This document shows, one piece after another, positions 1,429 to 23,829 of a stretch of DNA of 64,000 nt; position 1 is the first letter of the stretch, and the number at the start of each line of letters is the position of its first letter. The notes under the pieces are model-generated. The model saw only the letters and a program-made list of their open reading frames with translations. It ran no database searches and was not told where the DNA came from. Source of the stretch: Arenicellales bacterium (GTDB lineage Bacteria; Pseudomonadota; Gammaproteobacteria; Arenicellales; JAJDZL01); contig OZ241380.1 of assembly GCA_965200765.1 (NCBI GenBank), positions 1,106,417 through 1,170,416 on the forward strand, given 5' to 3'. The position numbers and the translations under genes are program-made.

Positions 1429-2097
1429 CTACAGCGCGCGTCTCACATCTTGCTGGCGTTGTGAAATGTAGTTTTTCATTGCCAGTTCGGCGCGGTCCGG
1501 ATCGCGCTGGGCGATAGCTTCGGCAACATCATGCGTCATCACCTCGTGTGCTTCGGCGATAGAATGCCAATTCCCCAGTTTTGATGAGATAAAGAACCAA
1601 AGGCGCAGGTGAAGATTGAATATTCTCGGAATTGCTTCAGCCAAATATCCATTCTGAGATGCTTCTGCCAATACCTTGTAGAATTTTCGGTCCAGAAAAA
1701 CATACTGGTCAATGTTGTCATCGCGAGTTGCCTGAACCAAAGCCTGGTGAATATCAAGCAAGTCATCAGCTTGCTTGGCAGTTGCCCGATTTGCGGCAAG
1801 CCGGCAGGCAAACCCGTCAATCAAACTTCTGAATTCGTAGATTTCCTGCATTGCCGTATAGCTGATTTCCGAAACAAACATGCCGCGATTCAGGCGATGC
1901 ACAACCAGTCCTTCACGCGCCAGCCGTTGCAACGCTTCCCGAACTGGCGTGCGGCCGATATTCAGCTCTTCCACCAAAACTTGTTCTGCCAAAACAGCAC
2001 CGGGTTGAAGGTCCAGACGGGTAATGCGGGTTACGAGTTCATTGTAGGCCTTGTCTGCAAGGGAAACGGGAGGTGATTTTTCAGTTGAGTTGGGCAT
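1429..2097 (-). CDS. GntR-family (FadR/FCD-type) transcriptional regulator
   Basis: N-terminal wHTH (LNIGRTPVREALQRLAREGLV) followed by an all-helical FCD-like C-terminal domain. It is the last gene of the co-directional operon, 12 nt after the upstream gene. Confidence 0.85.
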   Translation of the reverse strand: MPNSTEKSPPVSLADKAYNELVTRITRLDLQPGAVLAEQVLVEELNIGRTPVREALQRLAREGLVVHRLNRGMFVSEISYTAMQEIYEFRSLIDGFACRLAANRATAKQADDLLDIHQALVQATRDDNIDQYVFLDRKFYKVLAEASQNGYLAEAIPRIFNLHLRLWFFISSKLGNWHSIAEAHEVMTHDVAEAIAQRDPDRAELAMKNYISQRQQDVRRAL

Positions 2098-2109
2098 TTC
2101 TCCGTTTTT

Positions 2110-3063
2110 CTACGATTCAGGTGAAGCAACAAGTGTTCCCAATCCTTTTGACAACTTGTCTGTATCCAACTGTTGGCCAATGATCACAAGACGGTTGGTC
2201 GATCGTGGGGCGGCTTCCGAAATATCAAGTTGCCCCGCCGAATACTGAACCAGTACAGGTTGATCGTCTATCTGCATAAATCCTTTCATTCGCCAAACCG
2301 TATCAGGCAGCACATCACAATATTGTTTGAATTCAGAGCGGGTGATATCGACCCTGGGTTCAATCACGATTGACATCATCAGCTCGTGAACATGATGATG
2401 GTGATGATGATGGTGCGAACTGGACGGTTCACTCGCATCAGCTTCAGCATCCAGAACCAGGTCCTTTTCAATTTGGCACTGCTCGGTAAAGTAAATCAGC
2501 CCGTCGGGATTGATATTTTTGACTTCGCATGCAACTTTTCGAAGCTCATCTTTATCGGCCAAATCGATTTTGTTGACTACGACGATATCGGCATTCAAAA
2601 TTTGTGATTCGTAGAATTCGCCTAGCATGGAGCGAATTTTGTTGAATTTCGCGGCATCGACAACTGTAACGATCGGACAGATGTCAAAATTTGCTGAAAC
2701 AGAGGGGTCTTCAAAGTCGTCCAGCATATCTTCAGGGTCAGCAACACCACTAGCTTCAACAATAATTCTCTGTGCACCGGCATCATTCACGAGTTCTTCT
2801 GCGGCATTTAGCAACGATCCTTTCAGCGTGCAACAAAGACAACCTGAATTCAATTCTACTGTATCAATCGCGTTGCCTTGAATAATGTCGCCATCCACAC
2901 CGACATCACCAAACTCATTGACAATAATCGCCGTAGGAACTTCATTGCCGGCAGTTTCAATCAAATGGCGCACAAGCGTAGTTTTGCCGGAGCCAAGAAA
3001 TCCAAACAGGAGATGCAGGTTCGCTTGATTCGAGTGCGATCGGGTTGAAGTTTCTGTCGACAT
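2110..3063 (-). CDS. COG0523 / CobW-type G3E P-loop GTPase metallochaperone with His8 tract
   Basis: Walker A GFLGSGKTT, COG0523 hallmark GCLCCT, NKID (NKxD). A His-rich linker SSSHHHHHHHHVH (nt 2391-2414) precedes a CobW_C-like domain. Confidence 0.85.
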   Translation of the reverse strand: MSTETSTRSHSNQANLHLLFGFLGSGKTTLVRHLIETAGNEVPTAIIVNEFGDVGVDGDIIQGNAIDTVELNSGCLCCTLKGSLLNAAEELVNDAGAQRIIVEASGVADPEDMLDDFEDPSVSANFDICPIVTVVDAAKFNKIRSMLGEFYESQILNADIVVVNKIDLADKDELRKVACEVKNINPDGLIYFTEQCQIEKDLVLDAEADASEPSSSHHHHHHHHVHELMMSIVIEPRVDITRSEFKQYCDVLPDTVWRMKGFMQIDDQPVLVQYSAGQLDISEAAPRSTNRLVIIGQQLDTDKLSKGLGTLVASPES

Positions 3064-3069
3064 TGCCGC

Positions 3070-5022
3070 TTACTGCGATATAGATTCTGTAGATCGTTTA
3101 ATCCGTGTTTCTCTTCGAGACTTTGCGGTTGACCTCGCTGCCGATGGAAACGGCATTCCGGAAAATGACATGGAATCCACGAAAATATCCTGAAAATCCG
3201 GACGTGCGGCAAGCGCAACATGTTCAATGCTTTGACTGATTTCATATGCGGATTGGCGTTCGGTTTCCGACAGCAATGCCATTTGTGCACCAAGCAGAGC
3301 TGCATTGCCTACATAGGCGATACGCTCATGCGGCAAATTGGGTAGCAAGCGAATGGTTTTGGCACTTTCGATACTGACATAATTGCCAAATCCACCACAA
3401 AGCATCAGTTGTTCAATTTGTTCATCCTGAATATTCATGACAGTTTGAAGCATGCGAATTCCTGAATAAATAGCACTCTTTGCCAATTGCAACTGTCTGA
3501 CATCGCCTTGTGTGACACCGATGTTTTTCTTCTTGCCAGTTTCTTGATTCCAAACGAGGACGAATTCGGCCGAGCCATTGTCTGATTTTACCAACCGTTC
3601 CCGAATGCAGTCCGGCAACTCTTCAAGGTCCCGCTTTCGCATGTTTCCGTTGCTATCCATAATATGCGAATCAATCATTTTCGCCGCAGCATCAATGAGT
3701 CCTGAACCACAGATTCCAATTGCCGGCACGTCGCCGATGATCAGGCAGTTAAAATCGTTATTCACCTCGACTTTTTCAATTGCACCCAAAGCCCCCCGCA
3801 TGCCGTCTCGAATCTGTGCACCTTCCAGTGCCGGACCAGCTGGAGCAGAGCATGCCGTCATTCGTTTGCGCGACCCCATGACAACTTCGCCATTGGTGCC
3901 GATATCCACCAGTGCGCGAATCTCTTCACTCTCATGAATTCGAGTGGACAAGATGCATCCGACTGTATCAGCACCGACAAAACCTGCAATGATCGGTAGC
4001 AAGCATACCTTTGCCTTGGGTGCCGCCTTGAGCGGCAGATCGGCAGAGCTCAGAACCAGATTTTCCCGAACCACGGGAGCGTATGGCGCCAAGCCTACGT
4101 AAGAAACATCAATCCCGAGAAAAATATGATGCATGCAGGTATTGCCGACTACGACAATTTTATAGACATGCTCGGGTGATACGCCTGCTTCTTTGCAGGT
4201 TTGACGAATATATTCGTTCACTGCATTCAGAATTTTGGCGCGCAACGTAGACAATTTTTTATCGTCAAATTGCGCGTAGGCGATGCGCGACATCAGGTCG
4301 CCGCCATACACGGCTTGCGGATTTACACCGCCCGCCGAGGCCAGTTGTTCGCCAGATTTCAGGTCTAGCAGAGTTGCAACTACGCTAGTAGTGCCAATGT
4401 CAAAAGCCATGCCGTAGACGTGCTCCGTGGTATCACCGGCTTCAACATCAATCAACTCGCCATTGAATGTCGTAATTGTCAATTTGCCATTTTCGGCCCG
4501 AAGCAATTGGGGAATTTTACGTAGCAAATGAATGGAAGATTGAGTTGCATCGAGTTCGGCCGCACCCAGAATTTCCTCAATGTCTGAAGTCTGGTGATGT
4601 TCTTCAACCGGGAGGTTTGCGTGAATGATTCGTTTCTCCACACCACTGTCAAGGTGCATGCGATGGTTGTCCATTGACGAGTTTCCCGATTCAAGAATTT
4701 GATGTCCTTGCTCGGCTTTCGGCGGCACCGCCATGACAGTTGTATCGCCGAGCATACGCGTCTGACAGGCGAGGCGAAAACCTTCGTGAACTTCATCATG
4801 TCCTAGCTGCACTGAATCTTGTACAGTGGGCGGTGGTGTATCACCTTCCAAAATCTTGACCCGACAACTGCGACAACGCCCACGGCTACCGCAAGTTGCG
4901 TCGATATTGATTCCAGCCTGGCGCGAGGCTTCCAGAATTGTTGCGTCGCGAGCTACATTGACGGTTCTCGGTTTCTCGGCGCTACTGAGACCAACAAAAG
5001 TAACTGCAATGTCGGCAGACAT
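3070..5022 (-). CDS. RACo-like reductive activator of corrinoid proteins ([2Fe-2S] ferredoxin + ASKHA/DUF4445 ATPase)
   Basis: N-terminal plant-type ferredoxin pattern CGSRGRCRSCRV...LACQT. The C-terminal part has actin/sugar-kinase-fold phosphate motifs AFDIGTTSV and LVDIGTNGEVV. Its start overlaps the stop of the corrinoid protein gene. Confidence 0.8.
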   Translation of the reverse strand: MSADIAVTFVGLSSAEKPRTVNVARDATILEASRQAGINIDATCGSRGRCRSCRVKILEGDTPPPTVQDSVQLGHDEVHEGFRLACQTRMLGDTTVMAVPPKAEQGHQILESGNSSMDNHRMHLDSGVEKRIIHANLPVEEHHQTSDIEEILGAAELDATQSSIHLLRKIPQLLRAENGKLTITTFNGELIDVEAGDTTEHVYGMAFDIGTTSVVATLLDLKSGEQLASAGGVNPQAVYGGDLMSRIAYAQFDDKKLSTLRAKILNAVNEYIRQTCKEAGVSPEHVYKIVVVGNTCMHHIFLGIDVSYVGLAPYAPVVRENLVLSSADLPLKAAPKAKVCLLPIIAGFVGADTVGCILSTRIHESEEIRALVDIGTNGEVVMGSRKRMTACSAPAGPALEGAQIRDGMRGALGAIEKVEVNNDFNCLIIGDVPAIGICGSGLIDAAAKMIDSHIMDSNGNMRKRDLEELPDCIRERLVKSDNGSAEFVLVWNQETGKKKNIGVTQGDVRQLQLAKSAIYSGIRMLQTVMNIQDEQIEQLMLCGGFGNYVSIESAKTIRLLPNLPHERIAYVGNAALLGAQMALLSETERQSAYEISQSIEHVALAARPDFQDIFVDSMSFSGMPFPSAARSTAKSRRETRIKRSTESISQ

Positions 5023-5023
5023 T

Positions 5024-5731
5024 TCAAGCCCAGGCTTCTCTTTGCTCTTGCACTAGTCGAAGGGCGAGACGAACCGCTTCAACTGCATCTTTTCCCCAGC
5101 CATCTGCACCACATTCGTCGGCCCAATCCTGGGTTGTCGGTGCGCCGCCAATCAAGATCTTCACTTTGCCACGATGACCGGCATTACAAAATTCGTCAAT
5201 GGTAACTTTCTGATAGTAGACGGTCGTGGAAAGCAGGGCAGAAAACCCGATCAGATCAGCATTTTCTTCCAGCGCAGTTTGAATGAACCGGTCGGGATGA
5301 ACATCCGTACCCAAATTGATGACCCGGAAGCCGGCATTTTCAAGCATGATGGTCACAATGGATTGTCCGATATCATGCATATCGCCCAGTACAGTTCCAA
5401 TCACGAAAGTACCGACCGGTTTTTCCGCCATGGCGGCCAAAAGCGGACGAATCAGTGCCAATCCCGCTTTCATCGCACGCGCGGTGATCAACATTTCCGG
5501 AATAAAAATCACCTGTGCACTAAATCGGTCTGCTTGCAGATTGAAGCCCGGAAACAATCCGTCGTCCAAAATGACTCGCGGGTCGATATCAGCATCAATG
5601 GCTTGCTTGACCCTCTCGTCCGTATAGACATGATCGCCGGTTTCAACAGCATCCCAAAGTGTTTCCCATTCCCAGCCTTCGGGGGCTCGTTCTTCCCAGC
5701 CTGTTGGAATTTCTAATTCAGGTTCGTCCAT
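5024..5731 (-). CDS. Corrinoid (cobalamin-binding) protein, MtaC/MtgC/MetH-B12-domain type
   Basis: B12-binding motifs DxHxxG (GDMHDIGQ), SxL (SALLSTT) and GG (LIGGAP), preceded by a helical cap domain. Confidence 0.9.
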   Translation of the reverse strand: MDEPELEIPTGWEERAPEGWEWETLWDAVETGDHVYTDERVKQAIDADIDPRVILDDGLFPGFNLQADRFSAQVIFIPEMLITARAMKAGLALIRPLLAAMAEKPVGTFVIGTVLGDMHDIGQSIVTIMLENAGFRVINLGTDVHPDRFIQTALEENADLIGFSALLSTTVYYQKVTIDEFCNAGHRGKVKILIGGAPTTQDWADECGADGWGKDAVEAVRLALRLVQEQREAWA

Positions 5732-5754
5732 GGTTGCAGCTCCGATGAGTTTCT

Positions 5755-6924
5755 CTAGTTCAGTGGATATTTGCCATAAGTGCCAAAGTCGCGTTGTGCT
5801 TCCAGCATTGTAAAAATGTTTTGAATTGGCACATCGGCGAGTATGTAGTGGGCCGGTGAAAAAATATAACCACCGCCAGTCGCCAGGTTTTTCATAACTT
5901 CGCAGACACCGTTTCGTACGGCTTCAACTTGGCCGCGAGGAAGTAGTCTCTGTACATCAAATCCACCGATGAATGCAATGTCATCCCCGTACTGTTTTTT
6001 CAGATCGACCTGGTTCTTGTTGCCGCCTGTGGGTTGCATCAGGCCTGACAGGTCAACTCCAAGTTCAATCATGTCGCCGATGATCGGAGAGTAGTCTCCG
6101 CAAGAATGCAACTTGATGAAGATATCCTTGTTGGTTTCACGGAATTTCTTGAACATATAGTCAAATCTGGGTTTGCCCAGCTCACGCCACTGCTGTGGAG
6201 ATATCATCATGGATTGCTGTGCGCCGACATCATCGCCCACGCGAATCATGTCAATTCCCAGGTCAATTACGTTTTGTCCAAGTTTGGTGTAGTATTCGGT
6301 TAGTCCGTCCAGCACACCATGGATCAGCTCCGGTTCATCAAACAGATAGAGAAAGAAATTCTGTGTGCCAACCAAATGAGCGTAGGCCGCTTCGATCAAT
6401 GTGGAAGACAGGTCGACGATTATGAAATACTCGTCCTGATATTGGTCCAACAACGTACGAATTGGACCAATCAATTCTTCATCAGCCGGGTCTGGCCATG
6501 TATAGTTTTTCAAGTCTTCCATGGAGGTAATTGGGTGAAAGTTGGGAAAATTTTCCGGTACGACTTTGGCGGGTCCCCAAAAATCCTGCGTTTTCTGGAA
6601 CTCAAGGTGTTCTTCTTCGGTTCTGCCTTTGAGTCCGCTTTTGCCATAGCCAACTCCAAAGTGGTTGTACCAGGTTTCACCGATTGCAATGGGTCGATGG
6701 GAAAATTCGGCATTGATTCCGATTTGATAAATAATTGCATCGTTTCCCAGCCGAAGTTCCAATTCCGGATTGTGCTTCAAGCCTGTACCGGTTTTTTCAA
6801 TCCCGAAAACGCGGGCGATTTTCTCCTTGGCTTCGCTTTTCATGCGATACAGAAGGGGGACACGGTCCACAGGTTCGTGCCTGACAGCCCGTGCGAATCG
6901 TTCACGAGGAATTAACTCTTTCAT
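5755..6924 (-). CDS. URO-D-family (MtaA/MtbA/MtsA/CmuA-N-like) corrinoid-dependent methyltransferase with putative Zn site
   Basis: Length and overall pattern fit the uroporphyrinogen-decarboxylase-like methyltransferase family. It has an HxC motif KLHSCGD (H273 nt 6106-6108, C275 nt 6100-6102) and a downstream Cys (C341 nt 5902-5904). Confidence 0.75.
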   Translation of the reverse strand: MKELIPRERFARAVRHEPVDRVPLLYRMKSEAKEKIARVFGIEKTGTGLKHNPELELRLGNDAIIYQIGINAEFSHRPIAIGETWYNHFGVGYGKSGLKGRTEEEHLEFQKTQDFWGPAKVVPENFPNFHPITSMEDLKNYTWPDPADEELIGPIRTLLDQYQDEYFIIVDLSSTLIEAAYAHLVGTQNFFLYLFDEPELIHGVLDGLTEYYTKLGQNVIDLGIDMIRVGDDVGAQQSMMISPQQWRELGKPRFDYMFKKFRETNKDIFIKLHSCGDYSPIIGDMIELGVDLSGLMQPTGGNKNQVDLKKQYGDDIAFIGGFDVQRLLPRGQVEAVRNGVCEVMKNLATGGGYIFSPAHYILADVPIQNIFTMLEAQRDFGTYGKYPLN

Positions 6925-6989
6925 GGTGTCTGTTCTCCTGGATCAATTGGGTTAAGTGATTGAGTGAATTTTACAAACATTGCCTGAAT

Positions 6990-8000
6990 TTACTTCATGC
7001 TCTTGCGAGCGGTTCTGTTTGATTTGGTAATTGATCGAATGTATCGTAGATACTGTACAGAAAACTCGTCTTCTGCTGTAAGTGCATTCACTGCAAACCG
7101 AAAGTCGTCGAACGGCTTCACCGGATTCATAATCGGGTCGATCATCAGGGAATCACAACCGGCCAGAATGGACAGACTGACAAAAGCATGGTTCAAGATT
7201 TTCCTTTGTGGCAGTCCGAATGACACGTTGCTGTGTCCGCCGAATATATGAACTTTCGGATAGCGGGAACGCATTGTTCGCACTGCGTCCAGATAGTGGT
7301 TGCCGAAATCCGGTCCGGCACCAATGGGAAACACCAGCGGGTCCAAAAAACGATCCTCTATTGCGATGCCACCTTCCTCCATCATACTCATGCATTGTTC
7401 AAGATTTTCAATGCGTTGTTCAGCATTCTGGGGCATGCCTTTATTGCCACTTGCATTTGCGAACAGCAAGGCATTTCGCTCTTTTGCCATATCTACAAGC
7501 ACTTGTCTGCCATCTTCCAGATTGAACGAATTAATTGCAGGTCTGCTGATTGACCCGTCGTGTGCTTCCAGGCCCGCGTAAATCGTGTTTGAATCCGAAG
7601 AATCAATCGAAACAATACTGCTGGTGATGGATTGGGCAGTTTTGACGAGCCATTTTATCCATTCGTAGCGTTCTTCGGGATACACAGACATTTCGTCAAC
7701 ACACAGATCAATGATATGTGCACCCCCGCGTTCTTGAGCTCGAATCACCCAGGTGATGTAATCCATGTTCTTTTGTCGGCATGCTTCGGCGATGTGCGGA
7801 ATGGCGAAGAGCGCCTGTTCGTTCGGATCTTCCGGCATGCTACTCGTAACATCCAATCGTCCGGGAGTCGAGTCCAGTTTCGTATAAGTTACAAAAAATT
7901 TCCCATTTTCTTGTATCACACGAGTGCTGGATGCCTTGATTTTTCGAGTGGCATTGAAATTTTCGCCGATGATGACCAAGCCGTTATTTGCTACTTTCAT
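6990..8000 (-). CDS. Pterin-binding methyltetrahydrofolate:corrinoid methyltransferase (MetH-pterin/AcsE/CmuB/MtgA-like)
   Basis: DHPS-like TIM-barrel family. The N-terminal LVIIGENFNATRK resembles the IGERxN motif of MeTr/MetH pterin domains. IIDLCVDE and GLPQRK-type motifs are present. Confidence 0.75.
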   Translation of the reverse strand: MKVANNGLVIIGENFNATRKIKASSTRVIQENGKFFVTYTKLDSTPGRLDVTSSMPEDPNEQALFAIPHIAEACRQKNMDYITWVIRAQERGGAHIIDLCVDEMSVYPEERYEWIKWLVKTAQSITSSIVSIDSSDSNTIYAGLEAHDGSISRPAINSFNLEDGRQVLVDMAKERNALLFANASGNKGMPQNAEQRIENLEQCMSMMEEGGIAIEDRFLDPLVFPIGAGPDFGNHYLDAVRTMRSRYPKVHIFGGHSNVSFGLPQRKILNHAFVSLSILAGCDSLMIDPIMNPVKPFDDFRFAVNALTAEDEFSVQYLRYIRSITKSNRTARKSMK

Positions 8001-8021
8001 AGAATTGATTCCGTAACTTTG

Positions 8022-8678
8022 TCACTCGGGGAGCAATCCGTACATTCCGGAGCGCGACATTTTCGGAAGCATGGCGGCGCTTTCCAGAAGTGAAATGGGA
8101 ATTTGCGTGTCATCAAAAACCGTGAACAACTTTTTCTGGTCAAACAGGTCCCACTGAATCTGGTGTCCATCAATGGGATAGGAATAACCCGGTCCGAGTC
8201 GACGCGTGATTCTGAGTTGTTGCTTGTGTGCCCAACGGCGGGTTGTAATCACAAACTGCTTGGTGGCATTTTCGACACTCAGCCAAGCGGCCGATTCCAG
8301 AAACAGTGCCTCCACCAGCAACTCTTCATCCATCCATTGAATGGTTTGGTCGTCGACGGCTTTTCCGGCGGTCAAAGCAAATATGACGGCTTCTTTCGAG
8401 TTATTCATATATCGTTGAAAAATCTGGCTCTTCATGGAGACACCATTTTCCAGCACAATCTTGTCCTCATCAAGACAATCAACTGCAACAATGCGGTAGC
8501 TGACAGTGGGTTGAACAACGTCTGTCAATGCCTGAATAGCTGTTTCAGCTGCCTTGACAACCGCTGGTCGCACTTTTGCACCTTCCTTGTATCCATGTAT
8601 TCGCAATACAGAATCAAGTTTCGGTTTTGACTTGGCAAGTGAAACAGTTTGAGTTCGACCTCTTACTAAATTGTCCAT
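8022..8678 (-). CDS. Stand-alone MetH activation (AdoMet-binding reactivation) domain-like protein
   Basis: At 218 aa it matches the size of stand-alone Met_synt_B12-domain proteins. RRLGPGYSYPIDGH resembles the RxxxGY AdoMet-binding motif of the MetH C-terminal domain. Confidence 0.6.
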   Translation of the reverse strand: MDNLVRGRTQTVSLAKSKPKLDSVLRIHGYKEGAKVRPAVVKAAETAIQALTDVVQPTVSYRIVAVDCLDEDKIVLENGVSMKSQIFQRYMNNSKEAVIFALTAGKAVDDQTIQWMDEELLVEALFLESAAWLSVENATKQFVITTRRWAHKQQLRITRRLGPGYSYPIDGHQIQWDLFDQKKLFTVFDDTQIPISLLESAAMLPKMSRSGMYGLLPE

Positions 8679-8785
8679 TTCAACCTATCAGGCAATGAAA
8701 TATATATTCAAAATATATCATTTAAAAACAGCCTGTAGGGTACTTTCTTCAATTCTCCAATAATTGACCTATGAGAACAGGGGGT

Positions 8786-9634
8786 TTAACTGGTATTTTC
8801 CGGTTTTGGAAGCCGGGTCGCCAAGAGTTTGTACAAACCTGCGCCGACAACTGCCCCTACCATTGGTCCCAAAATATAGACAATGAAAAATCCGCCGCGA
8901 GGTCCTGGTATGGCAATATTTCCCCAGCCGAGAAAGAATGCGGCCAGACGGGGGCCGAAATCACGCGCCGGATTCATGCAACCCATGGTAATCGGACCCA
9001 GCACTGAAATGATTGCAGCGACGCAAACACCAATTACGACAGCCGCGATAGGAAAGTTTGGACGAGCATCATTGTGCGGGTGAATCACTGCTGCGATCAC
9101 AAACGCCATGACACCTGTACCAACGATTTCAGCGATAAACGCGGTGGGCATGCCAACAATCTGCCATGCTTCTTCACCTGTACCGTAGGTAGCCGGATTC
9201 GGAAAGTACAGACCGTAAGCCATTGCGCTTAGCTGACTGCCGGGTTCGCCTCGCAAAATCTCAAGTTTCGCTTCATAGGCCAGTATGGCATCGGCGAAGA
9301 TATAGTGAACAACAAACCCGGCGCAAACACCGGCAGTAATCTGAACGATCCAGTAGGGCAGAATTCGCCTGGCCGGAAAACCGTTCCAAACGGCGAACAT
9401 TAATGTAACAGCAGGATTAATGTGCGCCCCCGAAAGAGTTGCGGCTGTATAGATTCCCAGCGTTACACCAATCCCGGCAATGACTGCCACTTGCCACACT
9501 CCCATTTGTGCGCCGCCGATTGCTGCTGCGTGAGCTGAGCCGATACTAAAGAATACTAGTACGAATGTCCCTAAAAATTCTCCGCTGAGAGCTGACTTCA
9601 AGCTGGGGAGAGTTTGCTTGTCGTTGTCAGACAA
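8786..9634 (-). CDS. MIP-family channel (aquaporin/aquaglyceroporin-like)
   Basis: Hydrophobic six-helix pattern with two NPA boxes (GAHINPAVT and GCMNPARDFG). Confidence 0.9.
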   Translation of the reverse strand: MSDNDKQTLPSLKSALSGEFLGTFVLVFFSIGSAHAAAIGGAQMGVWQVAVIAGIGVTLGIYTAATLSGAHINPAVTLMFAVWNGFPARRILPYWIVQITAGVCAGFVVHYIFADAILAYEAKLEILRGEPGSQLSAMAYGLYFPNPATYGTGEEAWQIVGMPTAFIAEIVGTGVMAFVIAAVIHPHNDARPNFPIAAVVIGVCVAAIISVLGPITMGCMNPARDFGPRLAAFFLGWGNIAIPGPRGGFFIVYILGPMVGAVVGAGLYKLLATRLPKPENTS

Positions 9635-9677
9635 TGAACTTTCCCGTTTTCTGTATGAACAAAGAGTTTGTTGAAAC

Positions 9678-10595
9678 TTAGTTTACGCTGATTGACGTAT
9701 TGTCTTCACTCAGCGAAAATCTTCCGTCGGCTACTGCTTGAAACCAATCGGATGATTTTTTGAGTCCCCCAAAAGGATACACATGAAGTTTTTGAATCGG
9801 GCAGTCTGGATTGTCGCGACGAAACTGTGCCAATTCAATCAGGAGTTTCTCCGGTGTTGAGTTTTGTAACAGTTTGGAAGTGTTTTGCGCTTGCCGCCTC
9901 AATACCTTGATTGAAGGGCCTACACCGCATTGCATTGCATGTCGAAGCAGTGTTCCAAGCGTTGCAACTCCTGGCGCACCGATGTGAACGGGGAGTTCAA
10001 TTCCATCGTCGTCGATTTTCTTTTGCCAGCCGAGTACGGTTTTTGATTCAAAGCAGAATTGCGTGATGATGTAAATCTCGGCACTGGTGTGTTGAGCAAA
10101 CTCATTTTTCCAGTCCAAAGCCAATTTGATGTCTTTGTCCGGAATGTCAGGACTGCCTTCCGGATGACCTGCAATACCGATTTTTTGAATGCCGTACTTG
10201 TCGAACAATCCGGTTTGAAGCAACTGCATGGAATTCGAGAATTCACCGACTGGCTTGGCCGAACCGCCAGCGATTGCGAGAATCTGCCTGGAATCGTTTT
10301 CTTCTGTGAACCGCTTCAATCCGGTTTCCAGTACTTCTTCATTTTGAATTTGACGGGCCGCGAAATGCGGTACCGGAGTTAATCCTTCGGACGACAGTCG
10401 CTGGCACAAATTCAATGTATCGTACAAATGGGTGCCGGGTAGCAGGGTGACGTACACTTCGGTCTTGCTTGGCAAAATATCGCGATAGCTTGAAATTTTG
10501 GCCGCGGCTCCGGGCGTAGTTTCAACCGAATATCCCTGAGTCAATTCCTGGATGTGTGAAAACGTGCTAACAGACAATGTTTTTTCCTCGATCAT
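9678..10595 (-). CDS. Methylenetetrahydrofolate reductase (MetF)-like protein
   Basis: MTHFR-family motifs in the correct order: SVETTP (cf. SFEFFPP), VPHFAAR, LAIAGG, AGHPEGSP (cf. GYPEGH), ITQFCFE (cf. TQFFFD). Confidence 0.75.
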   Translation of the reverse strand: MIEEKTLSVSTFSHIQELTQGYSVETTPGAAAKISSYRDILPSKTEVYVTLLPGTHLYDTLNLCQRLSSEGLTPVPHFAARQIQNEEVLETGLKRFTEENDSRQILAIAGGSAKPVGEFSNSMQLLQTGLFDKYGIQKIGIAGHPEGSPDIPDKDIKLALDWKNEFAQHTSAEIYIITQFCFESKTVLGWQKKIDDDGIELPVHIGAPGVATLGTLLRHAMQCGVGPSIKVLRRQAQNTSKLLQNSTPEKLLIELAQFRRDNPDCPIQKLHVYPFGGLKKSSDWFQAVADGRFSLSEDNTSISVN

Positions 10596-10631
10596 TGGTT
10601 GTCTTGAAATACAAAATTTGAAAAGCTCCTG

Positions 10632-11165
10632 CTACTTCCACTCAAAGTAAACCACTGCGTCGTGAAAATCGTTGATGTCTTCTTCGCAGGAGGACAGAAT
10701 TCTGAAACCGTCATTGCTCTCGTTTCGCCAATTCATGTCAAGCATAATACGATTGGCAACCCAATAGTCAGATATCTTGTGTCCGATCAATACGAACACC
10801 AATGAGTTGCTGATTACGATGCCGTCGTCCGGCCCCAATCGTGTATTCATCGGACGAGGAGTTTGCCAATCTGCAACAATGTTGCTAGCGTCAGCATCCA
10901 GCGAGTCCACGATTGCAACGCGCTGAATCGGCCACGCAAAGGAATTACCGGTGATTTTCGTCTCTCCTTCAGGCAACTTGCAGGCCACCGCGAGAAGATG
11001 GTCGCCGCGGAAGGAGAGTTTGTCGTACAGGTTTTGACTACCATCAACGGCAACACAACCGGTTTCATTCAATTCGTTCAGTGACTGAATTGGCGGTGCA
11101 ACCCAGTCCATATTTTTCAATGAATGGCGGTTGAATTGAGGTACAGGAAATCGTTTTGCCCACAT
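10632..11165 (-). CDS. Hypothetical protein, first gene of the corrinoid operon
   Basis: 177-aa ORF, co-directional and 36 nt upstream of the MTHFR-like gene. No TM segment, signal peptide or motif I recognise. An alternative start lies at MDWVAPP. Confidence 0.55.
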   Translation of the reverse strand: MWAKRFPVPQFNRHSLKNMDWVAPPIQSLNELNETGCVAVDGSQNLYDKLSFRGDHLLAVACKLPEGETKITGNSFAWPIQRVAIVDSLDADASNIVADWQTPRPMNTRLGPDDGIVISNSLVFVLIGHKISDYWVANRIMLDMNWRNESNDGFRILSSCEEDINDFHDAVVYFEWK

Positions 11166-11240
11166 GTTGGTGAATTGGCTTTACTTGTAAAGTGAATGGA
11201 CAATTATAATACCAGTTTTATTTGGATGGCATCTTGGGTA

Positions 11241-11254
11241 TTTGTCAATACAAA
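11241..11254. promoter_or_regulatory. Candidate GntR-family operator (TTTGT-N4-ACAAA inverted repeat) in the divergent promoter region
   Basis: tttgtcaatacaaa has 5-bp perfect inverted arms and contains the GT-Nx-AC core typical of GntR/FadR-type operators. It lies 76-89 nt upstream of the operon's first start codon. Confidence 0.3.
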
Positions 11255-11398: not shown

Positions 11399-11689
11399 AT
11401 GGCGAAAGTAACAATTCTTTACTGGCAGGATATACCGTCTGTCGTAGAAGCCCGCGAGGGCAGGGAAGTACACAAAGAATTACTTAGCGAGCGATTTCAG
11501 GAGCTGATCGACCTGGTTGCGATGAAGAAGAATTTGGCCGGCACAGACGACTACCTCAATCACTGGACTAAAGGTTCCCCTACGACAGTTGAGGGTTCAC
11601 CCGAGGAAGCGGCACGAAAGGTCAAGGAAGAACTTGAAGCTCGCTACAAAGAAATCCGTAAAGAAGAACTCGCGAAGGCGGTTGGTTAG
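11399..11689 (+). CDS. Small 'virulence factor'-domain family protein (function unknown)
   Basis: 96 aa. The N-terminal KVTILYWQDIPSVVEA motif matches my recollection of the Pfam Virulence_fact family, often found next to MTHFR and corrinoid methyltransferase genes. It is divergent from the operon. Confidence 0.5.
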   Translation: MAKVTILYWQDIPSVVEAREGREVHKELLSERFQELIDLVAMKKNLAGTDDYLNHWTKGSPTTVEGSPEEAARKVKEELEARYKEIRKEELAKAVG

Positions 11690-20057: not shown

Positions 20058-20681
20058 TTAACCTGATTGCCAATTCAGCATTCCTTCGTGTTCAATAAAT
20101 TTCACGACTTCATCAAGGCCTTCACCGCTCTTGAGATTGGTAAACACAAAAGGTCGCTCATCGCGCATCTTTTTCGTATCTCGTTCCATCACTTCCAATG
20201 AAGCACCGACATGCGGTGCCAAATCGGTCTTGTTGATCACCAGCAAGTCCGAACGGGAAATTCCCGGGCCGCCTTTTCGGGGAATTTTGTCGCCGGCGGC
20301 TACATCAATGACGTAGATTGTCAAATCCGACAATTCCGGACTGAAGGTAGCTGCAAGATTATCGCCGCCGCTTTCAACTATTACCAAATCAAGATTTCCA
20401 AATCGCTGATGAAGTTCATCTACGGCATTGAGATTTATTGACGCATCTTCCCGAATTGCAGTATGTGGGCAACCGCCCGTTTCTACACCGATGATGCGAT
20501 TGGCTTCCAGACTTTCGTGGCGAACCAGAAACAGTGCATCTTCTTTCGTGAAAATATCATTGGTGACCACCGCAATCTGGTAGTTGTTTCGCATTCGCTT
20601 GCACAGCGAGTCCACCAATGCGGTCTTGCCGGCACCCACAGGACCGCCAATTCCCAATCGAAGTGTTGAATTGGAACTCAT
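20058..20681 (-). CDS. ureG: Urease accessory GTPase UreG
   Basis: P-loop [21 protein letters not shown]; strong UreG pattern. Confidence 0.95.
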
Positions 20682-20684
20682 CTT

Positions 20685-21386
20685 CTATGAGCGAAACATG
20701 CGACTGTATTGATCTTCGTGCAATGCGCTTCCAATAGCCATTGCTGGGGCAGTTTGACCGATATTGTCATCTTCCAGGTCGTTAACCGCATCAATCCACT
20801 CCGGTATGTTCTTGGCGCAATGCGACAATATTCGTTGTCCTGAAGTTTGACCAAGTGGCACCAGTCTGATTGCTGACGCAACCTGATGTTCACACCATAC
20901 CCACAAATACGCATGTTGCATTGTTAGTTTATTGATTCCCCATTCGCAGGCGGCCAAACTGAAAAGTGTGGCCCAACTTGTTTCGACGGTATCGAACCAC
21001 TGTTCAGCTCGTCTAATGCCCAAATCACTCAGCAACTTGGCTAATGCAATGCCCATTTGACGATCTTCCGCTAGCAGTTCTGAAGATTCTCTGAATGCAA
21101 TGAGAAACTGACTCCATTCGAAAACCTTTGATAGATCATCTTCTTTCCACGCATCGAACATTCGTCCGATTACTGGAATGTCCAGATGGCAAACATTGTG
21201 ACAGGCAATTTCGGAAATCCAGTCGTGAGCATCTTGTTCACAATTTATCCAGTCTCGGTGCACAGCGTATTCCAAACCGGTGGAATACGAATATGCTCCA
21301 ACTGGCAACGCAGGGCTGGCGAGTTGCAGTAGTCTGCAAATCGGAATGTCATTGTTGACACTAGTTGTGAGAGTGCCTATGTCCAA
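20685..21386 (-). CDS. ureF: Urease accessory protein UreF
   Basis: Position between ureE and ureG, and a UreF-like helical sequence (LLQLASPALPVGAYSYSTGLE). Confidence 0.85.
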   Translation of the reverse strand: MDIGTLTTSVNNDIPICRLLQLASPALPVGAYSYSTGLEYAVHRDWINCEQDAHDWISEIACHNVCHLDIPVIGRMFDAWKEDDLSKVFEWSQFLIAFRESSELLAEDRQMGIALAKLLSDLGIRRAEQWFDTVETSWATLFSLAACEWGINKLTMQHAYLWVWCEHQVASAIRLVPLGQTSGQRILSHCAKNIPEWIDAVNDLEDDNIGQTAPAMAIGSALHEDQYSRMFRS

Positions 21387-21801: not shown

Positions 21802-21803
21802 TG

Positions 21804-23811: not shown

Positions 23812-23829
23812 ACGATGCTTTCCTTGTTA

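What the first reader, a model, noticed from the sequence alone, without database searches (positions are those of the whole stretch)
5755..6924. URO-D-family methyltransferase carries an MtaA/MetE-like HxC...C zinc motif
In the translated sequence, H273 and C275 (KLHSCGD, nt 6100-6108) and C341 (GVCEVM, nt 5902-5904) sit where MtaA/MtbA/MtsA-type enzymes place their Zn ligands (H-x-C-x(n)-C). In those enzymes, and in the related MetE/core-MetE proteins, the zinc activates a thiol acceptor or donor. This argues that the substrate is thiol-like or halide-like rather than an amine or methoxy-arene. That is unusual for a gene next to a MetH-type pterin module in a presumably aerobic marine heterotroph.
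Basis: partly seen in the sequence, partly recalled or inferred. Interest (0 to 1): 0.62.

Follow-up and report, generated by a model that had tools for sequence, protein, structure and literature searches.

The report
Corrinoid methyltransferase, likely for methylated arsenic
The gene encodes the substrate-binding methyltransferase of a vitamin-B12-dependent demethylation system; its probable metal site is His-Cys-His rather than the proposed His-Cys-Cys, and in related bacteria the system sits beside arsenic genes, which suggests it removes methyl groups from methylated arsenic, a reaction with no known enzyme.

Summary
The ORF at 5755-6924(-) is a URO-D-fold protein. H273, C275 and C341 lie at the stated codons. 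Only part of the proposed motif holds.

- **Confirmed:** H273-x-C275 aligns with the His-x-Cys zinc ligands of MtaA and is invariant.
- **Rejected:** C341 is not a ligand. It varies among 142 orthologues (L/C/H/F/Y), is Lys/Arg in distant relatives, and lies mid-helix in the model.
- **Corrected:** MtaA's third ligand aligns with H359, which is invariant. The site is His-Cys-His (His-Asp-His in some relatives). That is not the His-Cys-Cys signature of thiol/selenol methyltransferases, so the thiol-or-halide inference is not supported.

The gene sits in a conserved ten-gene operon: orphan protein, MTHFR-like, GlpF-type channel, MetH-activation-like, pterin methyltransferase, URO-D, corrinoid protein, RACo, COG0523 GTPase and GntR.

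Relatives link this system to arsenic. Twelve of 17 long non-Arenicellales loci carry arsenite oxidase aioBA beside it, in two arrangements. One Arenicellales subclade has an arsR-arsI-aquaglyceroporin cassette where the channel gene normally sits.

Best reading: this is the substrate-specific methyltransferase that passes methyl groups from a methylated arsenical through cobalamin to tetrahydrofolate. The substrate is inferred from context only. I found no description of this system in the searched literature.

The parts
5755..6924 (-). URO-D-fold methyltransferase, 389 aa. Proposed substrate-specific methyltransferase (MT I) of the corrinoid system.
   Evidence: Pfam URO-D 2.2e-31. Best PDB match by sequence and fold is MtaA 4ay7. 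AF2 pLDDT 89.8. 341 proteins at E <= 1e-5, the best 120 listed all at least 78% identical; the next relatives are only about 47% identical.
6100..6108 (-). Codons for H273-S274-C275, the first two probable metal ligands, at the end of strand 269-273.
   Evidence: Aligned with H-I-C of MtaA. Invariant in 142 orthologues. H 124/124 and C 86 / D 38 in distant relatives.
5848..5850 (-). Codon for H359, the probable third metal ligand. It is the positional equivalent of MtaA's third-ligand Cys.
   Evidence: SPAHYI aligns with APGCGI of 4ay7. Invariant in 142 orthologues. His in 103/124 distant relatives. Follows strand 353-357.
5902..5904 (-). It is NOT part of the site.
   Evidence: Variable among orthologues: L68/C42/H19/F9/Y4. 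Lys/Arg in distant relatives. Lies mid-helix 333-347. Aligns to a Lys of MtaA.
5024..5731 (-). Corrinoid (B12-binding) protein, the methyl carrier. Contains the DxHxxG motif (GDMHDIG).
   Evidence: Pfam B12-binding 1.3e-26 and B12-binding_2 1.7e-14. NCBIfam methyltransferase cognate corrinoid protein and MtgC-like hits, below cutoffs. Motif read from the translation.
6990..8000 (-). Pterin-binding methyltransferase (MT II), a methyl-corrinoid:tetrahydrofolate methyltransferase.
   Evidence: Pfam Pterin_bind 2.8e-17. NCBIfam PRK07535 methyltetrahydrofolate:corrinoid methyltransferase domain 9.4e-53.
3070..5022 (-). RACo-type ATP-dependent reductive activator of the corrinoid protein, with an N-terminal 2Fe-2S domain.
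   Evidence: Pfam RACo_C_ter 1.9e-76, Raco_middle 3.7e-57, Fer2 and RACo_linker.
2110..3063 (-). COG0523/CobW-family GTPase with a CxCC motif and a His8 run. Candidate metallochaperone for the URO-D metal site.
   Evidence: Pfam cobW 2.2e-45 and CobW_C. Below cutoff for CobW, YjiA and ZigA. Motifs read. Present in 28/30 Arenicellales-type loci and all 23 other loci of at least 12 kb.
1429..2097 (-). GntR/FCD-family regulator, the last gene of the operon.
   Evidence: Pfam GntR 2e-16 and FCD 4.9e-24. Conserved position in relatives.
8022..8678 (-). 218-aa protein weakly similar to the MetH reactivation (activation) domain.
   Evidence: Pfam Met_synt_B12 E 0.0021, below cutoff. Conserved next to the pterin or URO-D gene in relatives.
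8786..9634 (-). GlpF-type aquaglyceroporin (MIP channel). Proposed to carry the neutral (methyl)arsenical in or As(OH)3 out.
   Evidence: Pfam MIP 1.2e-37. The top PDB hits are aquaglyceroporins: E. coli GlpF 7e-45, then AQP10 and AQP3. Orthologous MIP lies in the aioBA operons of relatives. Present in 15/30 Arenicellales-type loci and replaced by an arsR-arsI-MIP cassette in 5.
9678..10595 (-). Divergent methylenetetrahydrofolate reductase-like protein, proposed to oxidise methyl-THF.
   Evidence: Pfam MTHFR 5.6e-6. In relatives it is the gene immediately upstream of aioB in the same gene string.
10632..11165 (-). First gene of the operon. An orphan 177-aa protein with a LecB-like beta-sandwich fold; role unknown.
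   Evidence: No Pfam, NCBIfam or PDB sequence hit. Only 65 homologues, all unnamed. AF2 pLDDT 93.9. Foldseek LecB E 1.2e-4. Conserved in the cluster.
11203..11232 (-). Best sigma-70-like promoter match (ATGCCA-18-TATAAT), 38 nt upstream of the operon's first start codon. A TTGT-N4-ACAA inverted repeat lies just upstream.
   Evidence: This is a consensus match only, not evidence of function.
11399..11689 (+). Divergently transcribed 96-aa PF13769 protein, conserved beside the cluster.
   Evidence: Pfam Virulence_fact 1.2e-15. Present beside the cluster in 27/30 Arenicellales-type loci and 23/23 other loci of at least 12 kb.

Best explanation
The ORF encodes the substrate-specific methyltransferase (MT I) of a three-component, tetrahydrofolate-linked corrinoid methyltransferase system. 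The system is encoded by a ten-gene operon on the minus strand (1429-11165).

**Proposed mechanism (inferred by analogy with known systems).**
1. A mononuclear metal, most likely Zn, is held at the mouth of the URO-D barrel by H273, C275 and H359.
2. This metal acts as a Lewis acid. It binds the heteroatom of a small methylated substrate and makes it a leaving group.
3. Co(I) of the corrinoid protein (5024-5731) takes the methyl group.
4. The pterin-binding protein (6990-8000) passes the methyl group to tetrahydrofolate.
5. The MTHFR-like enzyme (9678-10595) oxidises methyl-THF.
6. RACo (3070-5022) re-reduces oxidised cobalamin.
7. The COG0523 GTPase (2110-3063) probably loads the metal.

**Proposed substrate (inferred from gene context only).** The most likely substrate is a methylated arsenical such as dimethyl- or monomethyl-arsenate, or trimethylarsine oxide. 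The reaction would be the reverse of the Challenger methylation step: CH3-As(V) + Co(I) gives CH3-Co(III) + As(III). The As(III) product would leave through the GlpF-type channel (8786-9634). In relatives it would then be oxidised by periplasmic arsenite oxidase AioAB, or its monomethyl form would be cleaved by ArsI.

**My estimates for each layer.**
- MT I of a corrinoid/THF system: about 0.85.
- His-Cys-His metal site: about 0.7.
- Methylated arsenical as substrate: about 0.45.
For: **Fold and relatives.**
- Pfam URO-D.
- MtaA is the best solved relative by sequence, profile and Foldseek.

**Metal site.**
- H273, C275 and H359 are invariant in 142 orthologues.
- They align with the three MtaA zinc-ligand positions.
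- Position 275 alternates Cys/Asp in the wider family.
- All three lie at strand C-termini in a confident model.
- A COG0523 GTPase with CxCC and a His run is co-conserved.

**System.**
- The corrinoid protein, pterin methyltransferase and RACo are adjacent and co-directional with short gaps.
- The same order is found in the 31 genome loci and in most metagenome loci.
- URO-D occupies the MtgB slot: many relatives also carry a separate homocysteine-type methyltransferase (PF02574, MtgE-like) alongside the pterin and corrinoid genes.
- The flanks hold PurU, FTHFS and ferredoxin reductase genes.

**Arsenic link.**
- aioB/aioA occurs within the locus in 12 of 17 non-Arenicellales loci of at least 17 kb, and in 13 of 23 of at least 12 kb.
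- The AioA is genuine (E 6e-236 to 1G8K/8RTM). AioB has a Tat motif.
- aioBA sits in one gene string with the MTHFR and MIP genes.
- The linkage appears in two different arrangements, upstream-divergent and downstream of GntR.
- An arsR, arsI-like and aquaglyceroporin cassette lies exactly where the MIP gene sits in other Arenicellales, in five loci (L008, L013, L020, L030, L031). The arsI-like gene scores 5.1e-32 to NCBIfam ArsI_CadI_VOC (NF041414) and 7.6e-18 to 2.8e-17 to the best solved chains (5dfg, 5d4f, 5c4p), which I recognise from my own knowledge as the ArsI C-As lyase structures; the CCH vicinal cysteines are kept.
- An ArsR-HTH/SAM-methyltransferase fusion is found in L025, L026 and L044.
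- The window's MIP is GlpF-type.

**Literature.**
- The mechanism of DMAs demethylation is unknown, and corrinoid methyltransferases of methanogens are suspected (PMC10579292, PMC6776024, bioRxiv 10.64898/2026.08.27.747368).
Against: - No experiment and no direct sequence signature ties the URO-D protein itself to arsenic. The link is by gene neighbourhood only.
- None of the 30 Arenicellales-type loci, the window's own lineage, has aioBA within 10 kb. I found no ars gene among the ORFs I scanned in the rest of the 64-kb window.
- ArsC, Acr3 and ArsH were not among the 25 most frequent flank families, the only ones the census lists.
- The aioBA and arsI associations may each trace back to a few ancestral events spread by transfer of the whole island.
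- Known As(III)-binding sites use two or three cysteines. This site has one.
- In methanogen cultures the demethylated species was DMAs(III), not DMAs(V) (PMC10579292). That does not fit a simple Co(I) SN2 attack.
- Environmental methylarsenic concentrations seem low for a ten-gene catabolic operon.
- A Tat-less Psr/Phs-like molybdoenzyme recurs with this methyltransferase family. It would fit sulfur chemistry equally well.
Confidence: 0.45

Rival explanations
1. Same corrinoid/THF system, but the donor is a methylated sulfur or selenium compound, such as dimethylsulfide, methanethiol, dimethyl di- or polysulfide, or methylselenides. The metal would coordinate S or Se, as in MtsA or the Mlp proteins.
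For: - MtaA-type enzymes are the closest solved relatives.
- One Cys ligand is retained.
- A Tat-less Psr/Phs-like (polysulfide/thiosulfate-reductase-like) molybdoenzyme recurs next to the pterin gene in Hyphomicrobiales loci and in the sister-clade locus L119.
- A cobalamin-dependent 'DMS methyltransferase' of aerobic marine bacteria has long been postulated and never identified (PMC6548844).
Against: - The site is His-Cys-His, and His-Asp-His in 38 of 124 relatives. It is not the His-Cys-Cys set that marks S/Se-methyltransferases of this superfamily (PMC10418091).
- Sulfur chemistry does not explain the aioBA, arsI and arsR neighbours.
- No methanethiol oxidase or sulfide-oxidation genes were seen in the flanks.
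Confidence: 0.15
2. Same system, but the donor is an oxygen- or halogen-linked methyl group: methanol, a methoxylated compound, or a methyl halide as in Cmu or Cdm.
For: - URO-D-family MT I enzymes include O-demethylases and the haloalkane enzymes CmuA, CdmB and MecC/E (PMC13222342).
- Replacing a Cys ligand with a harder donor favours oxygen ligands (PMC10418091).
- An MTHFR paralogue and PurU accompany the cmu pathway too (PMC3621897).
- The channel would suit a small neutral solute.
Against: - Similarity to CdmB is very weak (E 0.45 pairwise and 3.3e-5 with a profile).
- CdmB needs no metal and has a hydrophobic pocket (PMC13222342). This clade instead has invariant polar residues next to the ligands: D277, Y278, Y360, R228, K271 and R330.
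- This reading does not explain the arsenic-gene neighbours.
Confidence: 0.13
3. The protein works on the acceptor side, like MtaA (MT II type). Methyl groups would come from methyl-THF via the pterin protein and the corrinoid protein, and would be placed on a thiol or on As(III). That would be a split methionine-synthase-like or cobalamin-dependent arsenic-methylating system.
For: - MtaA, the closest solved relative, is an acceptor-side enzyme.
- MTHFR can supply methyl-THF.
- From my own knowledge, not checked here: MtaA with methylcobalamin is reported to methylate metalloids.
Against: - Many relatives already carry a separate homocysteine-type acceptor methyltransferase in the same cluster.
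- ArsI would destroy the product MAs(III), and AioAB would compete for the substrate As(III).
- PurU and FTHFS in the flanks fit C1 oxidation.
- The ligand set is not the thiolate-rich type (PMC10418091).
Confidence: 0.1
4. One reading: an MtaA/MetE-like zinc site made of H273, C275 and C341.
For: All three residues exist at the stated codons, and C341 is the only other cysteine.
Against: - C341 is replaced by Leu, His, Phe or Tyr in 100 of 142 orthologues.
- It is Lys/Arg in distant relatives.
- It aligns to a Lys of MtaA.
- It lies mid-helix on the outside of the barrel.
Confidence: 0.02

Closest known systems
MtaA / MtbA / MtsA, the methylcobamide:CoM methyltransferases of methanogens (PDB 4AY7; NCBIfam TIGR01463 MtaA/CmuA family)
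   Same: - URO-D (beta/alpha)8 fold.
- Best sequence, profile and Foldseek match.
- His-x-Cys at the same strand end.
- A third ligand-type residue at the same position after the last strand.
- Works with a separate corrinoid protein.
   Different: - About 18% identity.
- Scores 82 bits against a family cutoff of 235.
- The third ligand is His, not Cys.
- The partner methyltransferase is a pterin (THF) enzyme in an aerobic proteobacterium, not CoM chemistry.
- Probably acts on the donor side.
- Has clade-specific insertions around residues 40-125.
MtgBCD(E), the glycine-betaine corrinoid methyltransferase / split methionine synthase of aerobic marine bacteria (PMC12478193)
   Same: - Aerobic marine proteobacteria.
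- Separate corrinoid protein (best NCBIfam hits are MtgC-like).
- Pterin-binding MT II, MetF2-type MTHFR and reductive reactivation modules.
- Some relatives add the MtgE-like homocysteine module.
   Different: The substrate methyltransferase is a URO-D-fold metal enzyme, not an MttB-superfamily protein. The neighbourhood holds arsenic genes rather than betaine, DMG or sarcosine genes.
CmuAB and CdmBCA chloromethane systems, and the O-demethylases (MtvB, OdmB, VdmB, MtoB)
   Same: - MT I / corrinoid protein / MT II / activator logic feeding THF.
- The MT I belongs to the URO-D superfamily (PMC13222342).
- MTHFR and PurU accompany the cmu pathway.
   Different: - Only marginal similarity to CdmB.
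- CdmB is metal-free with hydrophobic channels.
- CmuA is fused to its corrinoid domain. That architecture is seen here only in the 45%-identical sister P0147.
Type 1 mlp gene clusters (Mlp1-3), methyl-selenide/methyl-sulfur corrinoid methyltransferases of anaerobes (PMC10418091)
   Same: URO-D-family MtaA homologues with a corrinoid protein and a RACE/RACo activator, found outside methanogens. Function was inferred from ligand set and gene context.
   Different: The Mlp proteins have His-Cys-Cys sites, occur only in obligate anaerobes, and have no THF methyltransferase. The present protein has His-Cys-His, occurs in aerobes, and has pterin and MTHFR partners.
ArsI (C-As lyase) and ArsM, the known enzymes of arsenic demethylation and methylation
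   Same: If the hypothesis holds, the pathway role is the same: removing methyl groups from arsenic. ArsI is encoded inside the cluster in one subclade.
   Different: There is no homology. ArsI is an Fe(II) dioxygenase that releases the carbon as formaldehyde from MAs(III) only, and ArsM uses SAM (my own knowledge of these families). The proposed enzyme would conserve the methyl group on THF and could act on di- or trimethylated species, for which no enzyme is known (PMC10579292).

Membership tests
MtaA/CmuA family (NCBIfam TIGR01463) and soluble CoM methyltransferases | URO-D (beta/alpha)8 fold | tested here: met
   Pfam PF01208 2.2e-31. Foldseek 4ay7_A E 2.3e-16, TM 0.78 on the target.
MtaA/CmuA family (NCBIfam TIGR01463) and soluble CoM methyltransferases | Score at or above the curated family cutoff | tested here: not met
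   TIGR01463 82.1 bits vs cutoff 235.4. PRK06252 80 vs 244. MtaA equivalog 55 vs 400. MtbA 52 vs 600.
MtaA/CmuA family (NCBIfam TIGR01463) and soluble CoM methyltransferases | His-x-Cys zinc ligands after the seventh strand | tested here: met
   KLHSCG aligns with VLHICG of 4ay7. Invariant.
MtaA/CmuA family (NCBIfam TIGR01463) and soluble CoM methyltransferases | Third ligand is Cys, giving the His-Cys-Cys coordination that marks S/Se-methyltransferases (PMC10418091) | tested here: not met
   The equivalent residue is H359. C341 is neither aligned nor conserved.
MtaA/CmuA family (NCBIfam TIGR01463) and soluble CoM methyltransferases | Bound zinc and methyl transfer to a thiol | not testable with these tools
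   Needs metal analysis and enzyme assays.
Three-component THF-linked corrinoid methyltransferase systems (MT I, corrinoid protein, MT II, activator) | Separate corrinoid protein with B12-binding domains and the DxHxxG motif | tested here: met
   Pfam B12-binding and B12-binding_2. GDMHDIG read in the translation.
Three-component THF-linked corrinoid methyltransferase systems (MT I, corrinoid protein, MT II, activator) | Pterin-binding methyl-corrinoid:THF methyltransferase | tested here: met
   Pfam Pterin_bind 2.8e-17. NCBIfam PRK07535 9.4e-53.
Three-component THF-linked corrinoid methyltransferase systems (MT I, corrinoid protein, MT II, activator) | ATP-dependent reductive activator (RACo/RamA type) | tested here: met
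   All four RACo Pfam domains, including RACo_C_ter 1.9e-76.
Three-component THF-linked corrinoid methyltransferase systems (MT I, corrinoid protein, MT II, activator) | Genes co-directional and their linkage conserved across lineages | tested here: met
   Ten co-directional genes with gaps of 1-107 nt. Same core order in the 31 genome loci and most metagenome loci.
Three-component THF-linked corrinoid methyltransferase systems (MT I, corrinoid protein, MT II, activator) | Substrate-dependent methylation of the Co(I) corrinoid protein by the MT I | not testable with these tools
   Needs reconstitution with purified proteins.
Uroporphyrinogen decarboxylase (HemE) | Score at or above the hemE equivalog cutoff | tested here: not met
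   TIGR01464 24 bits vs cutoff 303. UroD has F-T-K-G where this protein has H-S-C-G.
CdmB / O-demethylase MT I clade of the URO-D superfamily | Significant sequence similarity to CdmB (PDB 9rui) | tested here: not met
   E 0.45 pairwise. E 3.3e-5 over only 76 profile positions.
Arsenic-island component (functional class, not a homology family) | Recurrent physical linkage to bona fide arsenic genes | tested here: met
   aioBA in 12/17 long non-Arenicellales loci. AioA E 6e-236 to solved arsenite oxidases. arsR-arsI-MIP cassette in five loci.
Arsenic-island component (functional class, not a homology family) | Linkage to arsenic genes in the window's own lineage | tested here: inconclusive
   0/30 Arenicellales-type loci have aioBA. 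15/30 have the GlpF-type MIP and 5/30 the arsR-arsI cassette. No ars genes among the ORFs scanned in the rest of the window.

The most novel reading that the evidence does not exclude
This cluster would encode the missing enzyme of the arsenic cycle: a cobalamin-dependent methylarsenical:tetrahydrofolate methyltransferase. It would run the Challenger methylation backwards in aerobic bacteria of seawater, sediments, soils and marine-animal microbiomes. It would harvest the methyl groups as C1 units and hand arsenite to an aquaglyceroporin and, where present, to arsenite oxidase for energy. Its His-Cys-His metal site would be the first known enzyme site evolved to activate a carbon-arsenic bond for methyl transfer.
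Probability: 0.4. Interest if true: 0.88.

Novelty: new variant of a known kind. Interest (0 to 1): 0.7.

Why it matters
**An open question in the arsenic cycle.** How di- and trimethylated arsenic is demethylated is unresolved. ArsI handles only trivalent monomethyl- and aryl-arsenic (my own knowledge). For dimethylarsenate, PMC10579292 states that the mechanism remains unclear. Methanogen corrinoid enzymes are only suspected (PMC6776024; bioRxiv 10.64898/2026.08.27.747368).

**What this cluster offers.** It is a conserved, widespread and undescribed corrinoid system, physically tied to arsenite oxidase, an ArsI-like lyase, ArsR-type regulators and aquaglyceroporins. That gives a concrete, clonable candidate, so the question can be tested directly with a few recombinant proteins.

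**Value if the substrate is something else.** The work still defines a new, very tightly conserved URO-D methyltransferase clade with a His-Cys-His site. Orthologues stay above 70% identical across Alpha- and Gammaproteobacteria from sea, soil and fresh water. It adds a second family of substrate methyltransferases to the cobalamin-dependent methyl economy of aerobic marine bacteria.

**A correction for future annotation.** The third metal ligand in this branch of the URO-D superfamily is the His after the last strand, not a Cys.

Tried and rejected
1. **Methylophaga DMS methyltransferase.** The window's 47% GC and a paper on the unidentified cobalamin-dependent DMS methyltransferase (PMC6548844) suggested this. 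The closest genomes are Arenicellales MAGs, and nothing sulfur-specific was found, so I kept it only as a rival.
2. **Metagenome scan.** The single-protein scan found nothing. I repeated it with an orthologue alignment and obtained 79 loci.
3. **Cobalamin riboswitch.** None reaches the Rfam gathering score anywhere in the window.
4. **MtaA ligand numbering.** A literature search for it found nothing relevant. The numbering is supported only by the constant offset of 6 in the 4ay7 chain and by the general rule in PMC10418091.
5. **Ligand distances.** Model coordinates are not exposed by the tools. I could use only the secondary-structure positions and the homology mapping.
7. **177-aa protein.** I redid it with database homologues. 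The LecB-like fold gives no functional clue.
8. **Flank census.** The Pfam census of 136 flank ORFs found C1-THF genes but no ArsC, Acr3 or ArsH among the top 25 families. ORF calling there was a crude longest-ORF heuristic.
9. **Outgroup contexts.** The 30%-identical outgroup shares the H-x-[CD]...H pattern, but the three outgroup loci I scanned showed no adjacent corrinoid gene; the neighbours seen were LacI regulators, ABC transporters and HAD hydrolases. The pattern alone therefore does not prove methyltransferase function.
10. **Plasmid search.** It found only relatives at 26% identity.
11. **Literature on the cluster.** Four searches found no description of this cluster.


Full report
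**1. The observation**

The ORF at 5755-6924 on the minus strand encodes 389 residues. They include the only two cysteines in the protein. Pfam assigns one domain, URO-D (2.2e-31).

**2. Which residues correspond to the MtaA zinc ligands**

I compared the protein with MtaA in two ways. The pairwise phmmer search hit M. mazei MtaA (4ay7) at E 1.6e-9. A profile of 101 homologues hit the same chain at E 9.8e-22. Both alignments give the same mapping:
- KLHSCG pairs with VLHICG.
- SPAHYI pairs with APGCGI.

In the numbering of the deposited chain, the MtaA residues are H246, C248 and C325. So H273 and C275 are the equivalents of the first two ligands, and the third ligand's equivalent is H359. C341 pairs with a lysine in the preceding helix.

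Conservation agrees with this mapping:

| Residue | 142 orthologues, at least 78% identical | 124 sequences down to about 30% identity |
|---|---|---|
| H273 | invariant | 124/124 His |
| C275 | invariant | Cys 86, Asp 38 |
| H359 | invariant | His 103, otherwise mostly Gln/Asn |
| C341 | L 68, C 42, H 19, F 9, Y 4 | Lys/Arg in 83 |

D232 and G276 are also invariant in the distant set.

An AlphaFold2 model built on this alignment is confident (mean pLDDT 89.8, and 95-99 around the motif).
- H273 and C275 sit at the C-terminal end of strand 269-273.
- H359 sits just after strand 353-357.
- C341 sits in the middle of helix 333-347.

In a (β/α)8 barrel, strand C-termini form the active-site mouth and the helices lie outside it. 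I could not measure distances because model coordinates are not exposed. Foldseek ranks MtaA first (E 2.3e-16), then uroporphyrinogen decarboxylases, then MetE.

Verdict on the observation: the H-x-C half is real and not chance. The corrected motif is H273-x-C275-x83-H359.

**3. What the corrected motif implies**

Kountz and Balskus (PMC10418091) summarise the rule for this superfamily:
- S- and Se-methyltransferases have His-Cys-Cys.
- O-methyltransferases replace one or both Cys with carboxylates or non-ligands, which favours a harder donor atom.

His-Cys-His, and His-Asp-His in a third of the wider family, is therefore not the thiol signature.

The motif does not indicate a halide either. 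The chloromethane enzyme CdmB has no metal in its crystal structure, and EDTA and zinc do not affect its activity (PMC13222342).

NCBIfam places the protein well below every curated threshold:

| Family | Score (bits) | Cutoff (bits) |
|---|---|---|
| MtaA/CmuA | 82 | 235 |
| MtaA | 55 | 400 |
| MtbA | 52 | 600 |
| hemE | 24 | 303 |

It resembles MtaA in fold and ligand positions but is not a member of that family.

A metal site remains likely, for four reasons:
- The three residues are ligand types at the positions of a proven zinc site.
- Cys and Asp alternate at one of them.
- A COG0523 GTPase with a CxCC motif and a run of eight histidines is the ninth gene of the operon.
- That GTPase gene is present in 28 of 30 Arenicellales-type loci and in all 23 other loci of at least 12 kb.

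Whether the GTPase loads this site, or serves cobalt handling, is inference.

**4. The system around the gene**

Ten co-directional genes with gaps of 1-107 nt run from 11165 down to 1429:

| Order | Coordinates | Product |
|---|---|---|
| 1 | 10632-11165 | Orphan 177-aa protein |
| 2 | 9678-10595 | Divergent MTHFR-like protein |
| 3 | 8786-9634 | MIP channel |
| 4 | 8022-8678 | Protein weakly like the MetH reactivation domain |
| 5 | 6990-8000 | Pterin-binding methyltransferase |
| 6 | 5755-6924 | URO-D protein |
| 7 | 5024-5731 | Corrinoid protein with DxHxxG |
| 8 | 3070-5022 | RACo activator |
| 9 | 2110-3063 | COG0523 GTPase |
| 10 | 1429-2097 | GntR/FCD regulator |

- The best promoter-like match in the region lies 38 nt upstream of the first gene.
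- There is no cobalamin riboswitch.
- The closest genomes are Arenicellales MAGs.
- The rest of the window encodes urease, ETF-QO, acyl-CoA enzymes, PHA synthase and oxygenases. This is consistent with an aerobic heterotroph.

This is the standard architecture of a THF-linked corrinoid methyltransferase system: MT I, carrier, MT II and activator. The URO-D protein is the only candidate for the substrate-specific component.

Such systems are now known in aerobic marine bacteria, for example MtgBCDE (PMC12478193).

Several relatives also carry a homocysteine-type methyltransferase (PF02574, a BHMT/MtgE equivalog at 6e-137 in L033) next to the pterin and corrinoid genes. Because that gene already fills the acceptor role, URO-D is left with the donor-side, MtgB-like role.

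A Pfam census of 136 flank ORFs found ferredoxin reductase (4-5 loci), PurU (3) and formate-THF ligase (2). This fits oxidation of the methyl group through the THF pathway.

**5. The family**

- The database search found 341 proteins; the best 120 listed are all at least 78% identical to the query. They come from Gamma- and Alphaproteobacteria. Metagenome loci from many further samples extend this to about 67-81% identity.
- An exhaustive search shows a gap below the clade. The next full-length relatives are only 45-48% identical, then about 35%.
- Between Arenicellales genomes, the URO-D, corrinoid and pterin proteins are 80-91% identical where UvrA is about 69%. This points to strong constraint, recent exchange, or both.
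- The 30% outgroup shares the H-x-[CD]...H pattern, but the three outgroup loci I scanned showed no adjacent corrinoid gene. The motif is older than the methyltransferase role and does not prove that role by itself.

**6. The arsenic link**

*Arsenite oxidase in relatives.* In a Paracoccaceae genome, two Hyphomicrobiales-type contigs, an Acidiferrobacterales MAG and a Muproteobacteria MAG, the cluster is joined to a gene string. It runs: orphan protein, Rieske ferredoxin, MTHFR, aioB, aioA, pentapeptide protein, MIP, second COG0523.
- The large subunit matches solved arsenite oxidases at E 6e-236.
- The small subunit has a Tat motif.
- Across all fetched loci, aioB/aioA lies within the locus in 12 of 17 non-Arenicellales loci of at least 17 kb, and in 13 of 23 of at least 12 kb.
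- The linkage has two arrangements: divergent upstream, and downstream of GntR in L065 and L069. It has therefore survived rearrangement.

*The window's own lineage.* None of 30 Arenicellales-type loci has aioBA nearby, but 15 carry the MIP.
- In five loci (L008, L013, L020, L030, L031) the MIP position is occupied by an opposite-strand cassette of an ArsR regulator, an ArsI-like protein and a second aquaglyceroporin.
- The ArsI-like protein scores 5.1e-32 to NCBIfam ArsI_CadI_VOC, just under its cutoff. It scores 7.6e-18 to 2.8e-17 to its best solved chains (5dfg, 5d4f, 5c4p), which I recognise from my own knowledge as the ArsI structures. It keeps the vicinal CC of the arsenical-binding site.

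*Further links.*
- L025, L026 and L044 carry an ArsR-HTH/SAM-methyltransferase fusion.
- The window's MIP is of the GlpF type. Its top PDB hits are aquaglyceroporins: GlpF at 7e-45, then AQP10 and AQP3. By established knowledge this class conducts As(OH)3 and methylarsenite.

*A recurring molybdoenzyme.* A Tat-less Psr/Phs-like molybdoenzyme with a 4Fe-4S partner sits beside the pterin gene in four loci. A 33%-identical homologue, with an NrfD anchor and a MIP, sits in the 48%-identical sister-clade locus L119. It could reduce an oxidised form of the substrate. It is equally compatible with sulfur chemistry.

**7. Mechanism proposed**

*Shown by the analyses:*
- Fold.
- Ligand-position equivalence and conservation.
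- Operon composition.
- Gene linkage.

*Inferred:*
- The metal, probably Zn, binds an oxygen or other heteroatom of the substrate.
- Co(I) of the carrier attacks the methyl carbon.
- The methyl group goes to THF and is oxidised.
- The substrate is a methylated arsenical, and the step is the reverse of oxidative methylation: CH3-As(V) + Co(I) gives CH3-Co(III) + As(III).
- As(III) exits by the channel, then is oxidised by AioAB where present. Monomethyl As(III) can be finished by ArsI.

Clade-specific invariant polar residues flank the ligands: D277, Y278 and Y360, plus R228, K271 and R330. They would suit an oxyanion better than a hydrophobic gas. Their positions in space were not verified.

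*Weaknesses:*
- The link is contextual only.
- The window's own lineage lacks aioBA.
- Classical ars genes are not enriched in the flanks.
- As(III) sites normally use two or three thiols.
- Methanogen work found DMAs(III), not DMAs(V), to be the demethylated species (PMC10579292).

**8. What is known**

- The literature states that the mechanism of DMAs demethylation is unclear (PMC10579292). It implicates methanogen corrinoid methyltransferases only by correlation (PMC6776024; bioRxiv 10.64898/2026.08.27.747368).
- Four full-text searches found no description of this cluster, or of any corrinoid system linked to arsenite oxidase.
- The kind of system is known. The methyltransferase clade, its His-Cys-His site and the arsenic linkage are not. 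I therefore classify it as a new variant of a known kind.

**9. Verdict**

- **The finding as written is partly right.** A metal-type motif at the MtaA position exists.
- **It is partly wrong.** C341 is not part of the site, the ligand set is not the thiol type, and the thiol/halide inference does not follow.
- **The follow-up is more interesting than the original claim.** A tightly conserved, undescribed corrinoid system is repeatedly linked to arsenite oxidase, ArsI, ArsR and aquaglyceroporins. It is a concrete candidate for the unknown methylarsenic demethylase.

Noticed in passing
window 10632-11165 (-): The first gene of the operon is an orphan 177-aa protein. It has only 65 database homologues, all unnamed, and no Pfam, NCBIfam or PDB sequence hit. 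The confident AF2 model (pLDDT 93.9) is a beta-sandwich resembling the Ca-dependent lectins LecB/PA-IIL and the sponge lectin thrombocorticin. One Cys (C62) is invariant. Its role in the system is unknown.
   Followed up: partly
L034 17549-20255; L036 17581-20275; L041 about 17105; L082 about 6882; L119 3730-7267: A Psr/Phs-like molybdopterin enzyme without a Tat signal, with a 4Fe-4S subunit, recurs next to the pterin methyltransferase gene. In L119 it also has an NrfD anchor and a MIP gene. It appears both in the orthologue clade and in the 48%-identical sister clade (33% identity between the two Mo subunits). It may reduce an oxidised form of the substrate.
   Followed up: partly
window 11399-11689 (+): A small PF13769 ('Virulence_fact') protein is divergently transcribed from the operon. 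It is conserved beside the cluster in nearly all related loci. Its function is unknown.
   Followed up: partly
window about 11203-11254 (-): A promoter-like ATGCCA-18-TATAAT lies 38 nt upstream of the operon start, with a TTGT-N4-ACAA inverted repeat just upstream. That repeat has the form of a GntR-family operator. It is a possible binding site for the operon's own regulator.
   Followed up: no
window 2110-3063 (-); L008 15666-16697: The COG0523 GTPase has a His8 run in the window. In L008 it has a much longer His/Asp-rich stretch. The alphaproteobacterial loci carry a second COG0523 copy at the end of the aioBA-MIP string.
   Followed up: no
L001-L032 versus the window: The URO-D, corrinoid and pterin proteins are 80-91% identical between Arenicellales genomes whose UvrA fragment is only about 69% identical. 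The accessory genes (MTHFR, COG0523, MetH-activation-like) are only 50-70% identical. This suggests unusually strong constraint on, or recent exchange of, the three catalytic components.
   Followed up: partly
L017 5966-8130; L008 13850-15340: Transposase genes have inserted inside the cluster in two Arenicellales genomes. One lies between the MIP and the MetH-activation-like gene. The other lies between RACo and COG0523.
   Followed up: no
L118 3349-5109 (P0147): A 45%-identical sister protein is fused to a C-terminal corrinoid-binding domain, a CmuA-like architecture. It is followed by a second URO-D gene and a separate corrinoid protein, under a sigma-54 activator.
   Followed up: partly
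window 43364-45773 and 56321-57685 (+): An FMN oxidoreductase, a DmmA-like/2Fe-2S protein and a glutamine-synthetase-type protein hint at methylated-amine use by the same organism.
   Followed up: no
window 20058-25202 (-) and 23072-23359 (+): A urease gene cluster (UreD, alpha subunit, UreF, UreG-type GTPase), with an Rfam match to the antisense 5' ureB sRNA (RF02514, 81 bits).
   Followed up: no
L066-L073, L083, L086, L093, L100: In this sub-group of metagenome loci (72-76% identical URO-D), a distinct PF02574-like gene, 30% identical to the MtgE-like one, is inserted between the pterin and URO-D genes. In most of these loci the orphan and PF13769 genes are not adjacent to the cluster.
   Followed up: no
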